NCBI GenBank assembly: GCA_964202905.1
Contig: CAXNJO010000004.1
Location: 322,345-386,344 of the forward strand
Direction of reading: 5' to 3'
From: Polyangiales bacterium
Lineage (GTDB): Bacteria > Myxococcota_A > Polyangia > Polyangiales > JADJQN01
DNA: 64,000 nt
Position 1 is the stretch's first letter; every line of letters starts with the position of its first letter. Made by a program: the position numbers and the translations under genes. Shown here in pieces: positions 3,621-25,680 of the stretch. The notes below the pieces were generated by a model. The model saw only the letters and a list, made by a program, of their open reading frames with translations. It did no database searches and was not told the origin of the DNA.

Positions 3621-6302
<2,682 letters not shown>

Positions 6303-6305
6303 GGG

Positions 6306-8693
6306 CTACTGGAAGAGGCGCTCGGTGACGACGTTCTCGACGGCGATCCGCGTCAATGCCGCGCGGCCGGCATCGACCGCGTAGAGCTTGTTCTCGAAGG
6401 GCGAGAAGAAGACGTCGACGGGGATGCTGCCGGAGGTCGCACCGGGCGTCAGATCGATGCCGAGCTTCTGCGGGACACCGACGATGCCGAAGCTGAGCGA
6501 GAGCGCCGGCGAAGCGGGGACGGCGGGATCTTCGGCGATCCGGAACGCGACGGTCCGCCCGACGAACGGCACGTCCGACCAGGCCCGGAATCCCAGCCCG
6601 GCGTTCTCCGGCGTCGATGCAGGCACGCGGCAGCGCCCCGCGTCCGTCGCCGTCGCGCGGACGAGGCCCGAGAGCGCCCCGCGCACGACCCAGCTCGCGC
6701 GCGTCCGGACCTCGAACGTGACCAACTCCGGGAAGCACGCGGCGACGCGCTCGAGCGGGACCTCCGAGCCGAGCGTGCGGGGCCCAATCGTCAGGGCCCC
6801 CATGTCGTCCGCGTCGACGATCTCGAACGCGAGGACCGCGCGCGCGCCAGTCCCCGGATCCGTGGCGACGAGGGCCTGGCAGTCCGGAACGCCTTGCGCC
6901 CCAGGCGGGAGCTCGCCCGTGATGACGAGCTGGTCTCCGACGGCCCCCGAGACTGGCAGCGCCGGCGCGCCCGCGGTGCCGAGGACGCCCGCGCGGCAGA
7001 AGTCCGTCTCGCCTGCGCGGAACGCGTCACCGTCGAAGCGCCCCGCGACGCCGCTCAACACCGCGCCCTCGTACGTCGCAGCCCAGACCTCTCGGACGCC
7101 CGCCCATGGGTCTCCGAGCGCGCAGACGAGCGGGCCGCCCGCGTCCACCGCAGGGAAGGCCTGCGCGAACGACGGGGAGGCGCAATCGACGGGGGCGAGC
7201 CCCGGAACGGCGCTCGACGCTGCGCGCCCCGTTTCGTCGACCGGAAACGACACGCCGCGGAGGTTGAAGGTCGGCGCTTGCAGCACGGCAATCTCGCTGG
7301 CGACGAGGCTCCCGATGCGCGGACGGTGACGGCGCACGTACACGATCGCGTCACTCGCCGTGGAGGTCGCCGTGCCCGCGCACGAACCCGCGCTGCCGCG
7401 GCACATCGCGTCGCGGTCGTAGAGATCGACGAAGCGCACGCTGCCGTCCGTGAGCGTGACGGCGAGGAACACGCCGTGGAGCCGCGCCGGGCCCGTCGCC
7501 CCGGGCGCCGTCCCGCCCTCGACGCAGAACGGCGCGGGCGCCGCCGCGTCGTAGTCGCGCGTCGCGACGACCGTGAGCGCGGTCGCGGGGGAGTCGAAGG
7601 AGATGCGGTCCTGCGCGCGGGTCGCCGCGATCTCGACGGCGATGGGTTGCCCGTACGTCGCGCCGGACGGGTCGCTCAGGTCGAGGACGGCGACAGAGCC
7701 CGTGTCGTCGAGCGCGTAGAGGTAGCGGCGGTCACCCGGCGTCGTCTGCGTCGGCTCGGCCGGCACGAAGGGGGAGAGCGCGAGTTCGCGCACCGGCGTC
7801 CCCGTCGCGAAGGGCGCGAGCTCCGCGTCAAGCCCCGCCGTCGCGTCCAGCGAGAGGCGATGCACCACCGGGAGCGCGGCGTCGGCGACGAGCAGCTCTC
7901 CGGTCTCCTCGTCGAGGAGGAGCGCGACGGGGTACGGCTCGACCCCCGCGCTACGCGGCGCTCGAACGGGCGCGACGGACGGCGTGACGAGCGCGACGTC
8001 CGTGCACTCACGACGATAGAGGGGCAGCTCCGGGGCCGCTGCAGAGGGCTCGGGAGCCTCTGCCGCAAGCGCGAGCTCCCGGGCACCGGACGCGTCGAGC
8101 AGACCATCTCCGAGGATGGGGTATTGGCGCACACGACCGAGAGACGGGAGCGCGACGACGAGGAAGCGCTCATCGGGCGTGAGCAGGACGGACGCGGGGG
8201 CTGCGCCGAGCGGGACGCGCTGCGTATCGACCGAGGCGGTCGTCGCAGGCGCGCGGAAGCCGCTCGACGGGTACACCCAGAGGTCTTCGCTGCCGGCGTT
8301 CGCGACGTAGGTGGTGATCGGCCGATCCGCGACGACGCCCCGCGTCGAGACGACGTCCACGGGCAGCGCGCCCGCCTCGATGAACGTGTACCCGGGGATG
8401 GTCGCGTTGGTGTCGAGGATCGCGTTGGTGCGCAGATCGACGACGGCGAGCTCTCCCCGGCGCGATTGCAACACGATCGCGTGCAGGTCGTGGCCGGAAG
8501 GGAGGGTCCCGGTGGACGGGTCCATGGGCGCGCAGCGCGCGAGCGGCACGGCCGTCGGAGGCGTGGTGCGGACGTCGAAGCACACCAGCGAGGCGCGTCC
8601 CGGGCGATCGAAGCTGCGCGGCGTCGTGAGGATCGGGGTCTGGCTGCACGCGCCGAGCAGCGCGACGCACGAGAGGGCGAACCCGGCACGCAT
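6306..8693 (-). CDS. large hypothetical lipoprotein (lipobox LLGAC) with repeated YVANAGS / LYALDDTGSVAVLDL type segments that suggest a beta-propeller
   Basis: 795-aa ORF, non-repetitive, with a signal peptide MRAGFALSCVALLGACSQ. It is 4 nt from the mutS start and shares a coordinate with the next lipoprotein's stop. Confidence 0.6.
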   Translation of the reverse strand: MRAGFALSCVALLGACSQTPILTTPRSFDRPGRASLVCFDVRTTPPTAVPLARCAPMDPSTGTLPSGHDLHAIVLQSRRGELAVVDLRTNAILDTNATIPGYTFIEAGALPVDVVSTRGVVADRPITTYVANAGSEDLWVYPSSGFRAPATTASVDTQRVPLGAAPASVLLTPDERFLVVALPSLGRVRQYPILGDGLLDASGARELALAAEAPEPSAAAPELPLYRRECTDVALVTPSVAPVRAPRSAGVEPYPVALLLDEETGELLVADAALPVVHRLSLDATAGLDAELAPFATGTPVRELALSPFVPAEPTQTTPGDRRYLYALDDTGSVAVLDLSDPSGATYGQPIAVEIAATRAQDRISFDSPATALTVVATRDYDAAAPAPFCVEGGTAPGATGPARLHGVFLAVTLTDGSVRFVDLYDRDAMCRGSAGSCAGTATSTASDAIVYVRRHRPRIGSLVASEIAVLQAPTFNLRGVSFPVDETGRAASSAVPGLAPVDCASPSFAQAFPAVDAGGPLVCALGDPWAGVREVWAATYEGAVLSGVAGRFDGDAFRAGETDFCRAGVLGTAGAPALPVSGAVGDQLVITGELPPGAQGVPDCQALVATDPGTGARAVLAFEIVDADDMGALTIGPRTLGSEVPLERVAACFPELVTFEVRTRASWVVRGALSGLVRATATDAGRCRVPASTPENAGLGFRAWSDVPFVGRTVAFRIAEDPAVPASPALSLSFGIVGVPQKLGIDLTPGATSGSIPVDVFFSPFENKLYAVDAGRAALTRIAVENVVTERLFQ

Positions 8694-12009: not shown

Positions 12010-14085
12010 TCAGCCGGGCGTGACGAGCAGGTGGAAGTGCGCGACGCGGTTCACGGTGCGCGCGATGCCGCCGAGCAGCCGGAGGCGGTTCTGCTTGAGT
12101 TCTTCGCGCTCGACCATCACGAAGACCGTCTCGAAGAAGCTGTCGATCGGGCCGCGCAGCTCGCTGGCGACGAGCCCGAGGGCCTGCGCGTAGTGACCGG
12201 CTTCGATGGCGGCGTCGAGCGTGGGGCGCAGCCCAGCGAAGCGCTCCGCGAGTGCCCGCTCCGCCGGCTCTTCGAGGAGCGCGGCATCGACCGGCGCGTC
12301 GACCACGTCCTTCGCGATGTTCCAGGCGCGCTTGAACGCGACGGAGAGCGCGCCGAACTGCGGGAGGAGCCGCACCTCGGCGACCGCCCGCATGCGCGCG
12401 TCGAGGTCGCGCACAGAGCCCCCGTCCCACGCGGCGAGGACGGCGGCGACGAGGTCCGGCGCGTGGCGCTCTCCGTAGAAAGCCTCGAGGCGGGCGCGGA
12501 AGAAGGCGTCGAGCTTCGCGAGCGTCTCCGCAGCGGGCGCGAGGCGCTTCTCCTGCCGCGCGTACCCCGCGGCGGCGTGCGCGAGGGCCGCGCGGAGATC
12601 GACGTCCATCGGCCCCTCGAGCGCGATGCGGACCACGCCGAGCGCGGCACGGCGAAGCGCGAAGGGATCGGCGCTGCCGCTCGGAACGAGCCCGATGCCG
12701 AAACACCCCACGAGCGTGTCGAGCCGATCCGCGACCGCGACGAGCGCCGCGACGTGCTCACCGGGCACCTCGTCCCCCGCGCCCTTCGGCAGATAATGGT
12801 CGCGGATCGCGTCCGCCACGACGGGGTCCACGCCCTCGGCCAGCGCGTAGTAGCGCCCCATCAACCCCTGCAATTCAGGGAATTCCCCGACGATCAACGA
12901 GACGAGGTCGGACTTCGCGAGCTGGGCGGCCAGCGCGACCGATGCGCGCGGGACGGACGCGGGCGCGAGGGATTCGGCGAGCGCGCCGACGCGCTGGACC
13001 TTCTCCGCGACGGTGCCGAGCTTGTTCTGGAAGACGACGCCGGCGAGCCGCAGCGCCCGCTCGGAGAGGGCCGTCTTGCGGTCGTCGTCGACGAAAAAGC
13101 GCGCATCGGCGAGCCGGGCGCGGAGCACGCGGTCGTTGCCGCGCGCGATGCGGACGGGATCGTTCGCCGTGTTCGCGACCGTGAGGTAGCGGGGCAGGAG
13201 CGCCTTGGTTTGCGCGTCGCGCACGGCGAAGTAGCGCTGGTGACCGCGCATCACCGCGACGATGACCTCTTCGGGCAGCGTGAGGTACGCCTCCTCGAAG
13301 CGGCCCGCGACGACGTGCGGCTCCTCGACGAGCGAGAGGCATTCATCGAGCAGGAAGGTGTCCTCGATGAGCTCGCCGCCGGTCGCGCGGGCGCGCTCGA
13401 GCAGCGCCTCGTGCATGCGCGCGCGACGCTCGTCCGGGTCAGCGAGGACGTGCGCTGCACGCAGCACGTCGAGCCACGCGTCGGCCGACTCCACACGGAG
13501 GGGCGCGGGCGCGAGGAAGCGGTGTCCGAGCGTCTCCCGGCCCGAGGCGACGCCTGCGAACTCGAGCGGGATGAGCGTCTCCCCGTGCAACGCGACGATC
13601 CACTGCACCGGACGCCCGAAGGCGACCTCCCCCGCGCCCCAGCGCATGCTCTTCTGAAACGGCACCTGCGCGCAGAGCCGCGCGAGGACGTCGGGCAACA
13701 CCTCGGCGGACGGGCGCCCCTTCTCGTCGCGGCGGACGGCGACGTACGGGCCCTTGGGCGGTCGACGATCTCGACGTCGCTCAGGCGCCTTGCCGAGCTT
13801 CTTCGCGAAGGCCTCACCCGCCTTCGTCAGGGCGCCCGCGGCGTCGAAGGCGACGCTCTTCGGCGGGCCCATGACGAGCTCGTCGACGTCGGCCTGCGCG
13901 TCGGCCACGTCCGCGACGTGAAGCGCGAGGCGCCGCGGCGTCCCGAGCGCCCGCATCGGCCCGTGCGCGATGCGCGCGCCGGCGAGCCCCTTCGCGCAGA
14001 GTTCGGGCATCGCCTCGAGGGCGCGGGCGACGAAGGATGCCGGGAGTTCTTCGGTGCCGATCTCGAGGAGGAGGGTTCTTCCCAT
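12010..14085 (-). CDS. glyS: glycine--tRNA ligase beta subunit
   Basis: Start at the M of MGRTLLLEIGTEELPASFV (cat at 14083-14085). GlyS-family similarity along the whole length (FQNKLGT, GEFPELQGLMGRYYA). Confidence 0.9.
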   Translation of the reverse strand: MGRTLLLEIGTEELPASFVARALEAMPELCAKGLAGARIAHGPMRALGTPRRLALHVADVADAQADVDELVMGPPKSVAFDAAGALTKAGEAFAKKLGKAPERRRDRRPPKGPYVAVRRDEKGRPSAEVLPDVLARLCAQVPFQKSMRWGAGEVAFGRPVQWIVALHGETLIPLEFAGVASGRETLGHRFLAPAPLRVESADAWLDVLRAAHVLADPDERRARMHEALLERARATGGELIEDTFLLDECLSLVEEPHVVAGRFEEAYLTLPEEVIVAVMRGHQRYFAVRDAQTKALLPRYLTVANTANDPVRIARGNDRVLRARLADARFFVDDDRKTALSERALRLAGVVFQNKLGTVAEKVQRVGALAESLAPASVPRASVALAAQLAKSDLVSLIVGEFPELQGLMGRYYALAEGVDPVVADAIRDHYLPKGAGDEVPGEHVAALVAVADRLDTLVGCFGIGLVPSGSADPFALRRAALGVVRIALEGPMDVDLRAALAHAAAGYARQEKRLAPAAETLAKLDAFFRARLEAFYGERHAPDLVAAVLAAWDGGSVRDLDARMRAVAEVRLLPQFGALSVAFKRAWNIAKDVVDAPVDAALLEEPAERALAERFAGLRPTLDAAIEAGHYAQALGLVASELRGPIDSFFETVFVMVEREELKQNRLRLLGGIARTVNRVAHFHLLVTPG

Positions 14086-14163
14086 GGGGGCGCGGACTCT
14101 ATCGACGCGCGTCCCCGCGCGCAACGAATGCGGCGTCGTCGACGTCCAGCGCCCCCGTCGTCG

Positions 14164-19694: not shown

Positions 19695-20723
19695 TCAGAT
19701 CGCGGGCGTCATCGACGCATCGAGCTCCGCCGCGTCGGGCACGTCGGCATCGCCGACCGGCGCGCCGCCGTCGACATCCATCACGCCGGCGTCCACGGCG
19801 GGCGTGCCACCATCCACGCGGGGCGAGCACATGCCGACGGTGCCGGGGAAGGCCTCCGGCCCGCAGCACACGCCGCCCCCGAAAAAGCTCGGCCCGCAGA
19901 TGTCCTCGCCGGAACAGGTCACGCCGCACCCGCCGCAGTTGCTCGCGTCGGCCGCGACGCAGGCGTCCGCGCAGCAGAGTTGCCCCGCGGCGCAGACCGC
20001 GCCGCCGCACGTCGCGACGCACATGCCGCCCGCGCAGGCGGTGTCGGCCGCGCAGGTGTTGCCGCAACGCCCGCAGTTGAAGGCGTCGAGGTCGGTGTTG
20101 ATGCACATCGCCGCGTCGTCCGCGCCGCAGCACGTCGCGCCCGCGGGGCACGGCCCGCCGAGGAGGCCGCAGTTCGCCTGACACGTGAAGCCGCTGCCCG
20201 TGTTCCGGCAGATCTGCCCCGCGGCGCAGGCGCGGCCGAGCGTGCCGCACGTGCACGCCGTGCCCGAGCACGCGCTGGCGGTCATCGGGTCACACGCGTT
20301 CCCGCACGACCCGCAGTTCATGAAGCTCCGGTCGGAGCGCCCGTCCGTGCCCGAGGCGACGCTGCGGTTCACGCACGACGTCCCGCAACAGCGTTGCGTC
20401 GAGGGGCACGAGGGCGAACACGCGCCAGGCGGGCCGAGGTCGACGCCCGGCACGGAGCCGTCATTCATCGGCATGCCGCTCACGCACGTCCCGACCCGGC
20501 AGAGCTGCCCTGCGGCGCAACGCACGCCGCAGCCGCCGCAGTTGTTCGCGTCCGTCGTGACGGGCACGCACACGCCGTCGCACGAGCGCTCGAACGACGA
20601 CGCGCACGGAGGCGTCACCATCCGGTCATCGGTGCACCCCGCGAGGCCGAGCGCGGCGGACGCGAACACGAGGACGAAGGCGAGGAAGGACGCGGGGAGG
20701 CGGACGCTGGCGGGGCTGGTCAT
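19695..20723 (-). CDS. Cys-rich secreted lipoprotein with tandem NCGxCGxxC repeats (Myxococcus cysteine-rich repeat type)
   Basis: Signal plus lipobox ASAALGLAGC. Repeated CxxxNNCGGCGVxC...GxC motifs occur about eight times. The Cys content is very high. Confidence 0.7.
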   Translation of the reverse strand: MTSPASVRLPASFLAFVLVFASAALGLAGCTDDRMVTPPCASSFERSCDGVCVPVTTDANNCGGCGVRCAAGQLCRVGTCVSGMPMNDGSVPGVDLGPPGACSPSCPSTQRCCGTSCVNRSVASGTDGRSDRSFMNCGSCGNACDPMTASACSGTACTCGTLGRACAAGQICRNTGSGFTCQANCGLLGGPCPAGATCCGADDAAMCINTDLDAFNCGRCGNTCAADTACAGGMCVATCGGAVCAAGQLCCADACVAADASNCGGCGVTCSGEDICGPSFFGGGVCCGPEAFPGTVGMCSPRVDGGTPAVDAGVMDVDGGAPVGDADVPDAAELDASMTPAI

Positions 20724-21322: not shown

Positions 21323-22378
21323 TCAACGCCCGTCGTCGATCACGAAGAGCGCGTCGCCGTCGTGTTCGAGCGGCACCGCGTCGAGGGATGCGCCCTTGCA
21401 CGGGCCGTGGACGCAGAGGCCGTCCTCGCGGCGGAACCGCGCCCCGTGCGTGGCGCAGAGCAGCTCCGCGCCGTCCGGCGTGAGGTAGCGACGGCTCCCG
21501 GCGTCGAGGAGGATCGGCAGGTGCTTGCACACGTTGCGAAACGCGCGCGGCGTGCCCGCGGCGTCGCGCAGCACGAGCGCCTCGCGCCGCATCCCGCCCG
21601 CGCTCGGCGCAAAGCGGACCGCGCGCACCTCGCCGGGCGACGAGGGTGGCCAGCGAGCCCGCGGGGATGTCGGACGGGGGGCCCGCGCGCTCACGCGCCC
21701 TCGGCGCGGCGCGATCTCGGTGTAGACGCGGCGCGCGCGCACGGAAACGAGCTTCCGCTCGGGCAGGATGGCGGCCGTCAGCTCGCGCCCGTAGACGCAG
21801 CCCGTGTCGAGGCCGAGCGCGAAGTCCGTGCGCTGCAGCCCGCGCACCGCGTCGTGGCCGAAGAGCACGAAGGGCGGCCCCTTCCACCGGCGCGCCCAGG
21901 GCACACCCTCGCCCGCGCGCGTCGAGAGCTTGCCGCCGGGCAGCACGCTGCGGAGGTTGAGCATCACGTCGGGATCCTGCTTGTCGAGCTTCACGCCGGG
22001 CGCGAGCCCCCCGTGCACGACGAGGGTGTCGGCTTCGAGCGCGAGCGTGTACGGCAGCGTCGCGAGCCACGCGAGGTGCGCGTCCGTCGAGCTGCGAGAG
22101 CGCCTGCTGCGCGCTGCGACCGAGGCGCGGCGGCTCCTTCTTGCGATCGACCGCCTGCTTCCAGCGGATGAGCGCCTCGTCGTGGTTGCCGCGCACCGCG
22201 AGCATGCCCGGCGTCGCGCGCGTACTCCACCACGAGGCGGCTCTCGGGCCCCTTGCGCGACGAGGTCGCCGACGAGCACGACGCGGTCGTCCTCGCCGGG
22301 CTTGCAAGCGCGCACGAGCGCCTCGAGCTCGGCGATGCAGCCGTGGACGTCGCCGATCACGATGGTGCGCGGACCCAC
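21323..22378 (-). CDS. ApaH-like metallophosphoesterase (bis(5'-nucleosyl)-tetraphosphatase family) fused to a C-terminal Rieske [2Fe-2S] domain. The central ~55 codons are out of frame (three apparent +1 shifts).
   Basis: N-terminus MGPRTIVIGDVHGCIAELEAL...VVLVGDLV. Frames B and C carry RLVVEYARDAG and MLAVRGNHDEALIRWKQ. Back in frame: TDAHLAWLATLPYTLALEADTLVVHGG...LFGHD. C-terminus CKH-x21-CATH...CVHGPCKG is a CxH...CxxH Rieske signature. Confidence 0.6.
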   Translation of the reverse strand: MGPRTIVIGDVHGCIAELEALVRACKPGEDDRVVLVGDLVAQGAREPPRGGVRARRRACSRCAATTTRRSSAGSRRSIARRSRRASVAARSRRSRSSTDAHLAWLATLPYTLALEADTLVVHGGLAPGVKLDKQDPDVMLNLRSVLPGGKLSTRAGEGVPWARRWKGPPFVLFGHDAVRGLQRTDFALGLDTGCVYGRELTAAILPERKLVSVRARRVYTEIAPRRGRVSARAPRPTSPRARWPPSSPGEVRAVRFAPSAGGMRREALVLRDAAGTPRAFRNVCKHLPILLDAGSRRYLTPDGAELLCATHGARFRREDGLCVHGPCKGASLDAVPLEHDGDALFVIDDGR

Positions 22379-22518: not shown

Positions 22519-23099
22519 TCAGAAACAGGAGGTGTAGTCGTTCGAGCAGGTCGCCGTCGGGAGCACGCGATTCGCGCAGTCGCCGAAGGCCGTGCGCTGC
22601 GTCGAACAGAAGCTCGTTCCGCAGTTCATGTCCATGCTGGTGGCGCAGTTGGCCTGGAAGCAGCAGTCGAACGCGTTCCACTGCGCGAGGCAGCCGTTCG
22701 TCGTTGGCGCAGGCGATGACGTTGATGTTCGCGCAAGCCGAACAATCACCGCTCGGGTCGGCGTCGAGGCAGTCGCCGACGCACGTGCCCGTCGTGCAAC
22801 CGTCGATGCACGACTGGGTCGCCGCGCCGCAGTAGGGCCCCGCCACGTAGTCGATCGGCTCGTTCACGCAGGCGCTGCCCATGTCGCGCCCACCGAGATC
22901 GACCATCGGCCCCGTGCCCATGTCGCGCACGCCGAGGTCGGTGCCGCCCCCTCCGCCGAGGTCGGTCGCCTCCTCCTCCGTCGACCATCACGACCGGGCC
23001 GCTGCCCCCGCGTCGTCGCCCGCCGTCGGAGCACGCGCTGGCCGCGACGAGAAGGGCGCCCATTCCACACATGAATACGAAGGTCTGTCGGTTCATCAC
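22519..23099 (-). pseudogene. Cys-rich secreted lipoprotein gene interrupted by two apparent frameshifts (signal peptide, Gly/Asp-rich DLGG repeats and the Cys-rich domain lie in three different frames)
   Basis: Frame 1: MMNRQTFVFMCGMGALLVAASACSDGG. Frame 2: TDLGGGGGTDLGVRDMGTGPMVDLGGRDMGSACVNEPIDYVAGPYCGAATQSCIDGCTTGTCVGDCLDADPSGDCSACANINVIACANDE. Frame 3: NGCLAQWNAFDCCFQANCATSMDMNCGTSFCSTQRTAFGDCANRVLPTATCSNDYTSCF then stop. Shift sites are near 22960-22975 and 22695-22710. Confidence 0.55.
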
Positions 23100-24108: not shown

Positions 24109-25680
24109 TCATGGGACGGGGCGGTCGCTCGCGCAAGATGCTGCGTCCCCCGCGGACGGCGAGGCGGAGGCCGCGGGCGCCTCCCCGAGGAAGCGTCCGC
24201 GCAGGTAATACGCGGCATACGCGAGCGCCGAGACGACGTTGCCGAGGGCGATCGCGTTCCACAGCCACGGTCGCGCGAGGCCGAGAGGGCCCGTCACGAG
24301 CCACGCGAGCGGGATCGTCAGACCAAGCAACACGACGACGTCGAGCAGGAGGCTCGGCAGCGTCGCGCCCGCGCCCGACATCGCCTGCGAGAGCACGACC
24401 CCGACGCCGAGCACCGCGTACGTCACGCCGACGCGCCACAGGTACTCTTCGCCGGCGACGAGCACGGCCGGCGACGCATCGAAGAACGCCATGATCGGCC
24501 CGGAAAATGCGAGGTAGAGCGCGCTCAGCGCGACCATCGAAGGACGCGTTGAACAACGCCGCCCAGAGCCCGGCGCGCCGCGCGCGTTCGCGCAGAGCCC
24601 GCGCCGAGGTTGACGCCGACGTAGGTGGAGGCCGCCGCGCCCCAGCCCATGCCGACGAAGAGCGCCATCGTCTCGAGGCGCAGGCAGATGCTGTAGGCCG
24701 TGAGCGCCGAGGCATCCTCGCGCGCTCGTGTGGTGCGCGGTGAGCAGCGCGATGAACACGAGGATCGACGAGACGCGGAGCACGAACTGCGCGCTCGAGG
24801 GCCAGCCGATGCGCACGAGCCGGCGCAGCTCGGCGCGATCGGGCACCAGCCGCGCGAGCCGGAACGGCGGCGCATCGCGATCCACGAGCAGCATCGCGGC
24901 CCCGACGAGCACCGGCGCCGTGCGCCCGGCCAGCGTCGCCCACGCCGCACCGAGCACGCCGAGCCGCGGCGCCCCGATCGCCTCCGCGAGCGGCGCACAG
25001 AACGCGAGCGCGGCGGGGTACTCGCCGGAGCCGTAGATGAGGAAGGGGTTGAGCGCGACGTTGAGCACATTGCCCGCGACGAGGAGCGCCGCGGCCGCGG
25101 TGCCACGGCCGCGCGCCCGCAGAATCGCGGTGATTTGCAGGAGAAAGAAGATCGAGAAGCAGCCGCCGAGCAACACCTGCAGATACGACGAGGCGAGGTC
25201 CGCGACCTCGCCCTGCGCGCGCATGACGCCGCGCACGACGACATCGTGCCCGACGAGCCCGAGCACGCCGAACGCGAGCGAGAGCGCGCCGACGAGCAGC
25301 AGCGACTGCCAGGTCGCGCGCGCGACGCCCGCTGTGTCGCCCGCCCCGAGGCGCCGCGCGATGAGCGCGACGGTGGCCGTCGAGACGCCGTTGGAGAGGA
25401 TGGTCGCGACCGCCGCGATCATGTCGCAGATGCCGAGCGCCGCGAGCCCGGCGCCGCCGTTCGGCAGCTGCCCGATCATGAACATGTCGACGAGGTTGAA
25501 CGTGGTGTGCAGCGCCATCCCGACGACGAGCGGGAACCCGAAGCGCGCGACCCCCGCCGCCAGCGGACCGTTCACGATGCGCGCGAGCGCCGCGTCGCCG
25601 GCCGTGCAAGCGGGCGCGTCGTCGACGTCGTGGGACGCGGTTTGCGGTGCATTCACGGCACTGTGATCACAACGCAGCAC
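24109..25680 (-). CDS. MATE family efflux transporter (NorM-like). A ~55-codon internal segment is in another frame (two apparent frameshifts near 24725 and 24570).
   Basis: Twelve-TM-like hydrophobic profile. N-terminus FGFPLVVGMALHTTFNLVDMFMIGQL. The conserved ALTAYSICLRLETMALFVGMGWGAAASTYVGVNLGAG segment is found only in the frame of ORF 24525..25244. The C-terminus is back in the original frame. Confidence 0.7.
   Translation of the reverse strand: MLRCDHSAVNAPQTASHDVDDAPACTAGDAALARIVNGPLAAGVARFGFPLVVGMALHTTFNLVDMFMIGQLPNGGAGLAALGICDMIAAVATILSNGVSTATVALIARRLGAGDTAGVARATWQSLLLVGALSLAFGVLGLVGHDVVVRGVMRAQGEVADLASSYLQVLLGGCFSIFFLLQITAILRARGRGTAAAALLVAGNVLNVALNPFLIYGSGEYPAALAFCAPLAEAIGAPRLGVLGAAWATLAGRTAPVLVGAAMLLVDRDAPPFRLARLVPDRAELRRLVRIGWPSSAQFVLRVSSILVFIALLTAHHTSARGCLGAHGLQHLPAPRDDGALRRHGLGRGGLHLRRRQPRRGLCANARGAPGSGRRCSTRPSMVALSALYLAFSGPIMAFFDASPAVLVAGEEYLWRVGVTYAVLGVGVVLSQAMSGAGATLPSLLLDVVVLLGLTIPLAWLVTGPLGLARPWLWNAIALGNVVSALAYAAYYLRGRFLGEAPAASASPSAGDAASCASDRPVP

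What the first reader, a model, noticed from the sequence alone, without database searches (positions are those of the whole stretch)
21323..22378. ApaH-like metallophosphatase fused in one ORF to a Rieske [2Fe-2S] domain, directly upstream of bcp
The N-terminal ~250 aa form a calcineurin-like phosphoesterase with the ApaH motif pattern (GDVHGC, GDLV.RG, GNHD, GHD). After an Arg-rich linker, the same frame continues into a ~100-aa segment with CKH-x21-CATH. That is the CxH...CxxH Rieske cluster-binding signature. No stop or independent start separates the two. A phosphatase-Rieske fusion next to a peroxiredoxin suggests a redox-regulated nucleotide-signalling (Ap4A) enzyme.
Basis: partly seen in the sequence, partly recalled or inferred. 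Interest (0 to 1): 0.55.

Follow-up and report, generated by a model that had tools for sequence, protein, structure and literature searches.

The report
Frameshift artefact merging two coupled genes
The apparent phosphatase–Rieske fusion protein is not real here: seven stray extra bases in this very GC-rich sequence scramble the reading frame and skip the stop codon between two separate overlapping genes, although those two genes are true partners that are fused in a few other bacteria.

Summary
The 351-codon ORF at 21323-22378 (minus strand) exists and is open, but it is a composite reading, not a gene. Compared with every relative examined (75-97% identical), the window carries seven extra single bases: three inside the phosphatase core, one five codons before its stop, and three in the Rieske N-terminus. 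Deleting the seven bases restores a 227-aa ApaH-like (ALPH-type) metallophosphatase ending ...RRAEGA*, plus a 122-aa Rieske protein starting at a GTGA stop/start overlap. Both lengths match the relatives exactly. A ~97%-identical natural contig has the stop and a separate Rieske gene. Neighbouring genes (MatE, a small Cys-rich gene) carry the same kind of defect, single-base insertions outnumber deletions 18:0 against a relative, and the scrambled segment shows no relaxed selection. Sequence or consensus error is therefore the most likely cause. The real biology is a translationally coupled ALPH + Rieske pair that co-occurs with the peroxiredoxin Bcp. In-frame fusions of the pair occur in other Myxococcota lineages but are rare. 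Nothing has been published on the pair in the library searched, and its function is only inferred.

The parts
21323..22378 (-).
   Evidence: the exact 351-aa product is on record in no public assembly searched
21691..22378 (-). Native ApaH-like (ALPH-type) metallophosphatase gene: 227 codons plus TGA, carrying 4 extra bases in the window
   Evidence: Removing the extra bases gives a 227-aa protein ending YTEIRRAEGA*, 95% identical to P0001 and the same length as P0001-P0006. Pfam PF00149 57.7 bits. Best solved relative 2QJC, E 1.4e-37
21323..21694 (-). Native Rieske [2Fe-2S] protein gene: GTG start at 21694-21692, 122 codons plus TGA, carrying 3 extra bases in its first ~18 codons
   Evidence: The corrected product is 122 aa, 98% identical to the stand-alone P0121 and the same length as the L001/L006 genes. 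PF00355 36.6 bits. Ligands C55/H57/C79/H82 are invariant in 30 family members
21691..21694 (-). GTGA stop/start overlap (phosphatase TGA, Rieske GTG), the site of translational coupling
   Evidence: the same NTGA overlap occurs in 17 of 23 unfused genome loci
22087..22255 (-). Frame-scrambled segment of the phosphatase, bounded by extra bases at ~22255, ~22211 and ~22087. It contains the motif II lysine codon and the catalytic GNHD (22190-22179), which is out of the ORF frame
   Evidence: Synonymous:nonsynonymous codon differences in the native frame are 9:4 and 9:5 here, against 34:19 and 23:11 in the rest of the gene
21641..21712 (-). Junction cluster of four extra bases (~21712, ~21686, ~21667, ~21641). 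The first shifts the phosphatase frame past its stop into the Rieske frame. The other three scramble the Rieske N-terminal strand
   Evidence: All four are absent from L001, L003 and L006 and from the ~97%-identical natural contig L090
20830..21288 (-). bcp (Bcp/PrxQ-type peroxiredoxin), intact, 34 nt downstream of the Rieske stop
   Evidence: PF00578 137 bits. The identical protein occurs in metagenome contigs L088/L089. bcp is near 16/25 Rieske-linked versus 1/49 Rieske-less ALPH loci. No terminator-like site on the minus strand between the genes

Best explanation
The locus holds two separate, translationally coupled genes followed by bcp. The first is a 227-aa ApaH-like (ALPH-type, GDLVAKG) dimetal phosphatase. 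The second is a 122-aa Rieske-type [2Fe-2S] protein whose GTG start overlaps the phosphatase stop (GTGA). In the window sequence seven extra single bases shift the frame. Three (+1,+1,+1) scramble phosphatase residues ~43-97, including GNHD, and then restore the frame. One lies five codons before the stop and moves the reading into the Rieske frame, so the TGA is bypassed. Three more scramble the first ~16 Rieske residues and restore that frame. Because the DNA is 72% GC, no stop arises in the wrong frames, and one 351-codon ORF results. The extra bases are most likely consensus or assembly errors in the source sequence. Whatever their origin, no functional fusion protein is encoded here.

Shown: the indels, the native gene structure, the synteny, and the existence of natural fusions elsewhere. 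Inferred: that the cause is error rather than mutation. Also inferred is the biology of the real module: the Rieske protein binds the phosphatase and makes its activity depend on redox state (as sensor of, or electron donor to, the metal site), in a peroxide-stress context shared with Bcp.
For: Frame hopping is visible directly in the three-frame translation. Pfam Metallophos rises from 30.4 bits (aa 4-44) to 57.7 bits (aa 4-178) after three bases are removed.

Nucleotide alignments place single extra bases in the window at 22255, 22211, 22087, 21712, 21686, 21667 and 21641, relative to three relatives. For the last four, the same holds against the ~97%-identical natural contig L090, which has an in-frame TGA and a separately called Rieske gene. 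Deleting the seven bases yields exactly 227 aa + 122 aa with a GTGA overlap, the lengths seen in relatives.

All nine closest homologs (75-95% identity) are stand-alone proteins of 227-239 aa (seven of them exactly 227 aa), with a 120-122-aa Rieske gene 4 nt-overlapping downstream, then bcp.

Evidence for error rather than biology: against L001 the window has 18 single-base insertions and 0 single-base deletions over 8.5 kb. Eleven of these fall in conserved coding sequence of four adjacent genes (MatE 3, small Cys-rich gene 1, phosphatase 4, Rieske 3). The small Cys-rich gene is split without compensation. An extra base also sits in an intergenic spacer relative to ~99%-identical contigs. The synonymous:nonsynonymous ratio in the scrambled segment equals that of the rest of the gene. 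The GC3 phase still follows the native frames. The literal 351-aa product is found in no public assembly.

Evidence for the real module: NTGA overlap in 17/23 unfused loci. Natural in-frame fusions of 332-359 aa in many independent assemblies, including a complete chromosome. A confident model of one fusion (pLDDT 93.8, pTM 0.77). Rieske ligands invariant. bcp association p = 4e-9.
Against: The source reads are not available, so error and very recent real mutation cannot be separated directly. The extra bases occur in clusters whose sums are multiples of three (MatE 3, phosphatase core 3, Rieske 3), which is not what fully random independent errors would most simply give. They are not homopolymer-type errors (for example an A at 22087 and a T at 21667). 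map, bcp, the Stig1-like gene and the M50 peptidase gene in the same block are clean. No same-species contig covering the three phosphatase-core sites was found. The redox-partner mechanism for the real module rests only on gene fusion, coupling and neighbourhood, and on analogy.
Confidence: 0.85

Rival explanations
1. The seven extra bases are real, very recent mutations. The phosphatase and Rieske genes (and MatE and the small Cys-rich gene nearby) are fresh pseudogenes in this strain, and the long ORF is a by-product of the lack of stops in GC-rich off-frames.
For: The indels are window-specific and clustered in some genes while others nearby are intact. They are not homopolymer-type. The literal product lacks GNHD in frame and the first Rieske strand, so it would be non-functional, as expected for a pseudogene.
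Against: 18:0 insertions over deletions; from my own knowledge bacterial mutation tends to be deletion-biased. There is no excess of nonsynonymous change and no stop in the native frame. Extra bases also occur in intergenic spacers relative to ~99%-identical contigs. Four adjacent conserved genes would have to have been hit almost simultaneously.
Confidence: 0.11
2. One reading: a genuine single polypeptide with an active ApaH-like phosphatase domain fused to a Rieske domain, a lineage-specific gene fusion acting as a redox-regulated Ap4A enzyme.
For: The ORF is open. One +1 indel before an NTGA overlap is exactly how such a fusion could arise. Natural fusions exist at 39-50% identity.
Against: In the ORF frame the product lacks GNHD and the motif II lysine, and residues 43-97 are nonsense. 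The Rieske N-terminal strand, retained in natural fusions, is also scrambled. The nearest relatives, up to ~97% DNA identity, are unfused. Natural fusions form a separate, distant clade rather than being the nearest relatives.
Confidence: 0.03
3. Programmed recoding: ribosomes shift frame at the extra bases and make the native proteins from the sequence as written.
For: None beyond the fact that the native frames remain intact between the extra bases.
Against: It would need at least seven separate shifts in 620 nt, at unrelated non-slippery contexts. The same defects occur in unrelated neighbouring genes and in spacers. No relative shares any of them.
Confidence: 0.01

Closest known systems
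ApaH-like phosphatases (ALPH) of the PPP family, e.g. Trypanosoma brucei 2QJC 'putative diadenosine tetraphosphatase' and TbALPH1 (mRNA decapping enzyme; PMC5491325, PMC535813)
   Same: The frame-corrected 227-aa protein has GDVHG, GDLVAKG (second Asp neutral, Arg->Lys: the ALPH signature given in PMC535813), GNHD, HGG, GHD and LDTG. It aligns full-length to 2QJC (E 1.4e-37). The model of the fused homolog superposes on 2QJC at TM 0.88, rmsd 2.0 A.
   Different: It is bacterial (Sandaracinaceae-like) and paired with a Rieske protein and Bcp. No substrate has been tested. In the window as written the gene is frame-disrupted.
Canonical symmetrical Ap4A hydrolase ApaH (E. coli, Shigella; 2DFJ, 9OJD; NF001204, TIGR00668)
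   Same: Same fold and N-terminal motifs. ApaH is known to be inactivated by disulfide stress in E. coli (PMC8833179), a precedent for redox control in this enzyme class.
   Different: Only residues 5-130 align. NCBIfam scores are 90 and 54 bits against cut-offs of 176 and 223. The protein is ~50 aa shorter, and motif II has Lys rather than Arg.
Natural Metallophos-Rieske fusion proteins of Myxococcota MAGs (P0010, P0013, P0014, P0016-P0026, P0028-P0030, P0034; L040 on chromosome OZ245758.1; L069)
   Same: Same two domains in the same order. Orthologous to the window's two genes (39-50% identity over 95-99% of the corrected sequence). Rieske ligands and the extra C-x4-C are conserved.
   Different: They are true uninterrupted ORFs with all motifs in one frame and a structured linker. 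The window's ORF needs seven extra bases and loses GNHD. They are rare: six clusters at 50% identity among 1.84 billion representatives. Databases name them only 'metallophosphoesterase' or 'ferredoxin subunit', and none is characterised.
Small soluble Rieske-type ferredoxins / Rieske domains of ring-hydroxylating oxygenases (PF00355; e.g. 3GKQ, 8JNG, 7QWT)
   Same: CxH...CxxH ligand pattern, Pfam score above threshold, and fold match of the C-terminal half of the fusion model.
   Different: Very weak sequence similarity to any solved Rieske protein (E 0.02). There are 21 residues between the two ligand boxes, where ~15-17 is usual (my recollection). It carries an additional invariant C-x4-C. 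Its genomic partner is a phosphatase, not an oxygenase or reductase.

Membership tests
Calcineurin-like/PPP metallophosphoesterase (PF00149) | Motif I GDxHG in the reading frame | tested here: met
   GDVHGC at 22354-22337, in the ORF frame
Calcineurin-like/PPP metallophosphoesterase (PF00149) | Motif III GNH(D/E) in the same reading frame as motifs I and II | tested here: not met
   In the literal ORF, GNHD (22190-22179) is offset by 2. It is met only after the extra bases at ~22255 and ~22211 are removed
Calcineurin-like/PPP metallophosphoesterase (PF00149) | Pfam score above gathering threshold over most of the domain | tested here: inconclusive
   Literal ORF: 30.4 bits (>21.5) but only aa 4-44 of a 191-position profile. 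Corrected: 57.7 bits, aa 4-178
ApaH-like phosphatases (ALPH; PMC535813) | In GDxxDRG, the second Asp replaced by a neutral residue and Arg replaced by Lys | tested here: met
   The native (corrected) sequence and all close homologs have GDLVAKG. The literal ORF reads GDLVAQG because an extra base falls in that codon
ApaH-like phosphatases (ALPH; PMC535813) | [quoted passage not shown] | tested here: met
   2QJC E 1.4e-37 over aa 4-212, against lambda phosphatase E 1e-5. Fold match TM 0.88
Canonical ApaH, symmetrical Ap4A hydrolase (NF001204, TIGR00668) | NCBIfam equivalog score above the curated cut-off | tested here: not met
   90.2 bits against 176, and 54 against 222.85. Only residues 5-132 align
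Canonical ApaH, symmetrical Ap4A hydrolase (NF001204, TIGR00668) | Hydrolysis of Ap4A to 2 ADP | not testable with these tools
   Needs an enzyme assay
Rieske [2Fe-2S] domain (PF00355) | CxH ... CxxH ligand boxes | tested here: met
   CKH (21529-21521) and CATH (21457-21446) are in frame. C55, H57, C79 and H82 are invariant in 30 stand-alone and fused homologs. The spacing of 21 residues is longer than I recall as typical
Rieske [2Fe-2S] domain (PF00355) | Pfam score above gathering threshold | tested here: met
   33.2-36.6 bits against 20.3
Rieske [2Fe-2S] domain (PF00355) | Actual binding of a [2Fe-2S] cluster with His/Cys ligation | not testable with these tools
   Needs EPR/UV-vis on purified protein
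Natural Metallophos-Rieske fusion proteins | Both domains encoded in one uninterrupted native reading frame, with no stop between them in the lineage | tested here: not met
   The native TGA (21693-21691) and GTG (21694-21692) are present. The relatives at 75-97% identity are unfused. The single ORF depends on window-specific extra bases
Bcp/PrxQ peroxiredoxin (PF00578), the neighbour | AhpC/TSA domain above threshold, intact ORF | tested here: met
   137 bits against 26, 152 aa, the same length as in relatives

The most novel reading that the evidence does not exclude
Setting aside the artefactual ORF, the underlying ALPH-Rieske-Bcp module would be an undescribed redox-gated phosphatase system. 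A dedicated Rieske [2Fe-2S] protein carries an extra invariant C-x4-C, is translationally coupled to an ApaH-like phosphatase, and is covalently fused to it in some lineages. It would sense peroxide or disulfide stress, or poise the enzyme's dimetal centre, and so switch hydrolysis of Np4N alarmones, Np4 RNA caps or phosphoproteins. This would parallel, by a different mechanism, the disulfide-stress inactivation of E. coli ApaH.
Probability: 0.25. Interest if true: 0.55.

Novelty: not a real feature. Interest (0 to 1): 0.22.

Why it matters
It matters mainly as a caution. In >70% GC DNA, stray indels do not produce stop codons, so they can silently create long plausible 'fusion' ORFs. Motif spotting across frames then reinforces the illusion. 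This window carries such defects in several genes, so other findings from it should be frame-checked against homologs.

The secondary value is biological. The analysis shows that an ApaH-like phosphatase and a small, atypical Rieske protein form a conserved, translationally coupled pair. The evidence is real Rosetta-stone fusions in other lineages and a strong association with the peroxiredoxin Bcp in Sandaracinaceae/Polyangiales-type Myxococcota. I found nothing published on this pairing. It offers a testable lead on how ApaH-type enzymes might be coupled to redox stress.

Tried and rejected
(1) My first guess was that the shifts were G-homopolymer errors. Alignment to relatives showed the extra bases are not homopolymer-type (for example A at 22087 and T at 21667).

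(2) A reference-free GC3-phase Viterbi scan of the whole window recovered the MatE and phosphatase shifts. It also gave false positives: 5557-5735 in a MutS-like ORF and 8008-8142 read sensibly in one frame. It also flags ordinary gene starts. It is not reliable as a frameshift counter on its own.

(3) The genome-contig scan did not return the source genome.

(4) Exact look-up of the 351-aa ORF found nothing. The exact bcp product occurs only on two short metagenome contigs that stop short of the junction.

(5) DNA for the 95%-identical genome GCA_041443025.1 could not be fetched because the file was too large.

(6) A metagenome pattern scan across the first insertion site found 20 contigs, but only two were true homologs, both without the extra base. 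Matches carrying the extra base were unrelated genes.

The repeat used the full fusion profile rather than a Rieske-only profile, so it does not count stand-alone Rieske partners.

(8) Model coordinates are not exposed, so the distance between the Rieske cluster site and the phosphatase metal site could not be measured.

(9) Literature searches for ApaH-like + Rieske and for metallophosphoesterase + Rieske + fusion found nothing relevant.

(10) I considered and rejected programmed frameshifting: there are too many sites, no shared context, and spacers and neighbouring genes are also affected.

Full report
**1. What is in the sequence**

An ORF runs on the minus strand from a GTG at 22378 to a TGA ending at 21323 (351 aa). 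It is the only frame of the three without an internal stop. However, the same kilobase also carries overlapping ORFs of 371, 299 and 206 aa in other frames. This is normal for DNA of 72% GC, so an open ORF means little here.

A three-frame translation shows that the protein-like signal does not stay in one frame:
- It starts in the ORF frame (MGPRTIVIGDVHGCIAELEALVRACKPGEDDRVVLVGDLVA...).
- It moves to a second frame (GPESRLVVEYARDAG).
- It moves to a third frame (MLAVRGNHDEALIRWKQAVDRKKEPPRLGRSAQQALSQL).
- It returns to the ORF frame (DAHLAWLATLPYTLALEADTLVVHGG...).

The literal ORF instead reads GAREPPRGGVRARRRACSRCAATTTRRSSAGSRRSIARRSRRASVAARSRRSRSS across this stretch. Pfam sees the Metallophos domain only at residues 4-44 of the literal ORF (30.4 bits). 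After three bases are removed the match becomes residues 4-178 at 57.7 bits. The Rieske match (PF00355, 33 bits, residues 264-329) and the CKH-x21-CATH pattern are in frame.

**2. What the relatives show**

A search with the frame-corrected protein gave two classes of hit.

*Close relatives.* The nine closest (75-95% identity) are stand-alone phosphatases of 227-239 aa, seven of them exactly 227 aa, ending ...YTEIRRAEGA, and they cover only 63% of the query. In every case where the context could be read, a separate Rieske gene of 120-122 aa follows with a 4-nt overlap. These cases are a 31-kb NCBI contig and loci L001 and L003-L007. In the five contexts long enough to show it (the NCBI contig, L001, L004, L006, L007) the upstream order MatE, map, a small Cys-rich gene and/or the downstream bcp and Stig1-like Cys-rich gene match the window; in L003 and L004 the gene after the Rieske gene lies on the opposite strand, and L005 ends there.

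*Extra bases in the window.* Nucleotide alignments show that the window has single extra bases relative to all of these at about 22255, 22211, 22087, 21712, 21686, 21667 and 21641. The fourth lies five codons before the native stop.

*The closest natural contig.* L090 is a 647-nt metagenome contig ~97% identical to the window. It encodes a 119-aa stand-alone Rieske protein that is 98% identical to my reconstruction. It lacks all four junction insertions and has the in-frame TGA.

*Reconstruction.* Deleting the seven bases from the window yields exactly a 227-aa phosphatase ending RRAEGA*. It also yields a 122-aa Rieske protein (VSAGPPVRHPAGSLATLSPGEVRAVRF...) that starts at the GTG of a GTGA overlap at 21694-21691. 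Both lengths match L001 and L006.

**3. Artefact or mutation?**

Several observations point to errors in the source sequence rather than to biology:
- Over the 8.5-kb syntenic block, the window shows 18 single-base insertions and no single-base deletions relative to L001. Eleven lie in conserved coding sequence of four adjacent genes: MatE 3, small Cys-rich gene 1, phosphatase 4, Rieske 3.
- The small Cys-rich gene is split into three ORFs without compensation.
- Relative to ~99%-identical contigs, the window has one more extra base in the bcp-Stig1 spacer.
- A probable 29-nt frame excursion lies in glyS (13757-13785), though that one is only suggestive.
- In the native frame, the scrambled phosphatase segment has the same ratio of synonymous to nonsynonymous codon differences as the rest of the gene: 9:4 and 9:5, against 34:19 and 23:11. 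The GC3 phase still tracks the native frames. Any real mutation would therefore have to be extremely recent.
- The literal 351-aa product is on record nowhere.

Points against simple random error:
- The extra bases are clustered.
- They are not homopolymer-type.
- Three clusters each sum to +3.
- Neighbouring map, bcp, Stig1-like and M50 genes are clean.

I cannot see the reads. I put about 0.75 on sequence error and about 0.1-0.15 on very recent real mutation. In both cases the ORF does not encode a functional fusion. In its frame it lacks GNHD and the motif II lysine, and it has lost the first Rieske beta-strand. That strand is retained in natural fusions.

**4. What the real genes are**

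*The phosphatase.* It is an ApaH-like phosphatase in the sense of PMC535813. Motif II is GDLVAKG, with a neutral residue in place of the second Asp and Lys in place of Arg, the change unique to ALPHs. Its best solved relative is T. brucei 2QJC (E 1.4e-37, full length). The fusion model superposes on 2QJC at TM 0.88. It is not a canonical ApaH: NCBIfam scores fall well below the cut-offs, and only the N-terminal half aligns. Its substrate is unknown. ALPHs and ApaH act on Np4N and on RNA caps (PMC5491325, PMC8833179).

*The Rieske protein.* It passes the Pfam threshold but is remote from every solved Rieske protein (E 0.02). Its four ligands are invariant in 30 homologs, as is an additional C-x4-C pair.

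**5. The association is real**

Among 80 species-representative genomes with a homologous phosphatase:

| Arrangement | Loci |
|---|---|
| Separate Rieske gene immediately downstream | 23 |
| In-frame fusion (L040 on a complete 9-Mb chromosome; L069) | 2 |
| No Rieske gene | 49 |
| Contig end | 6 |

In 17 of the 23 unfused loci the stop and start overlap as NTGA. This implies translational coupling. It also explains why a single +1 indel is enough to merge the ORFs, both in evolution and, spuriously, here.

Fusions of 332-359 aa recur in independent NCBI, JGI, ENA and Logan assemblies. They are rare, however: six clusters at 50% identity among 1.84 billion representatives. A natural fusion models confidently (pLDDT 93.8, pTM 0.77), and no solved structure has both domains.

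bcp lies within 1.5 kb of 16/25 Rieske-linked loci, against 1/49 Rieske-less loci (Fisher p = 4e-9, not corrected for phylogeny). It occurs in two arrangements: downstream on the same strand as here, or divergent upstream. No terminator-like site separates the three genes in the window.

**6. Mechanism (inferred)**

The coupling, the fusions and the Bcp association suggest that the Rieske protein is a dedicated partner of the phosphatase and ties its activity to redox or peroxide status. E. coli ApaH is inactivated by disulfide stress (PMC8833179), which is a precedent for redox control of this enzyme class. Whether the cluster senses oxidants, reduces the dimetal site, or does something else is not shown. 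Neither is the substrate. I found no paper on the pairing.

**7. Verdict**

The finding as stated, one ORF encoding a phosphatase-Rieske fusion, is not a real feature of this genome. It is produced by frame-shifting extra bases in a GC-rich sequence. The domain calls and the redox-partner idea are reasonable for the underlying two-gene module, which is uncharacterised but ordinary in kind. Interest is low for the finding and modest for the module.

Noticed in passing
window 24109-25680 (-), extra bases at ~24725, ~24597, ~24545: The MatE efflux gene carries three single-base insertions relative to L001. They scramble about 60 residues in the middle and then restore the frame, the same +1,+1,+1 pattern as in the phosphatase. 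Pfam's best MatE stretch in this ORF covers only residues 50-212.
   Followed up: partly
window 22519-23099 (-), shifts at ~22699 and ~22960: A small secreted Cys-rich protein gene (191-201 aa in relatives) is split into three overlapping ORFs (117, 172 and 76 aa) by uncompensated frame shifts. The 172-aa ORF runs on in the wrong frame to 22412, ending just upstream of the phosphatase GTG start (22378).
   Followed up: partly
window 13757-13785, inside glyS (12010-14124, -): A probable 29-nt frame excursion in the glycyl-tRNA synthetase beta subunit. The literal frame reads KAPERRRDRRPPKG, whereas the neighbouring frame reads LSDVEIVD, which fits the homologs' pattern better. The loop is weakly conserved, so this is only suggestive.
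   Followed up: partly
window ~20760, ~20807, ~23114, ~24076, ~24085, ~19585 (intergenic spacers): Single extra bases relative to relatives also occur in non-coding spacers. The one at ~20760 is confirmed against two ~99%-identical natural contigs (L088, L089). Overall there are 18 single-base insertions and 0 single-base deletions against L001. Other findings from this window should be frame-checked.
   Followed up: partly
window 21415-21398 (Rieske residues C93 and C98); alignment A4: Besides the four cluster ligands, two further cysteines in a C-x4-C arrangement (DGxCxxGPCxG) are invariant in all 30 stand-alone and fused Rieske partners. This may be a thiol/disulfide switch or a structural disulfide.
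   Followed up: no
one search hit list (P0168-P0233 and others): Many proteins of 500-1250 aa carry an ALPH-type domain at their extreme C-terminus, at high scores to the profile (~280 bits). Their N-terminal regions and taxonomy were not examined.
   Followed up: no
window 19695-20723 (-) and 22519-23099 (-): The phosphatase-Rieske-bcp trio is flanked on both sides by Cys-rich secreted proteins (a Stig1-like protein of 342 aa, and the small Cys-rich gene). This arrangement is conserved in L001 and L006/L007, and on the downstream side in the GCA_041443025.1 contig. The Stig1-like signal peptide has a 12-nt in-frame insertion relative to L088/L089.
   Followed up: no
L014, L017, L022, L043, L046, L048, L059, L060, L066, L069 and others: In most Rieske-linked loci outside the window's own clade, bcp is not downstream. 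Instead it is divergently transcribed about 0.55 kb upstream of the phosphatase start. The trio is thus kept together in two different gene orders.
   Followed up: partly
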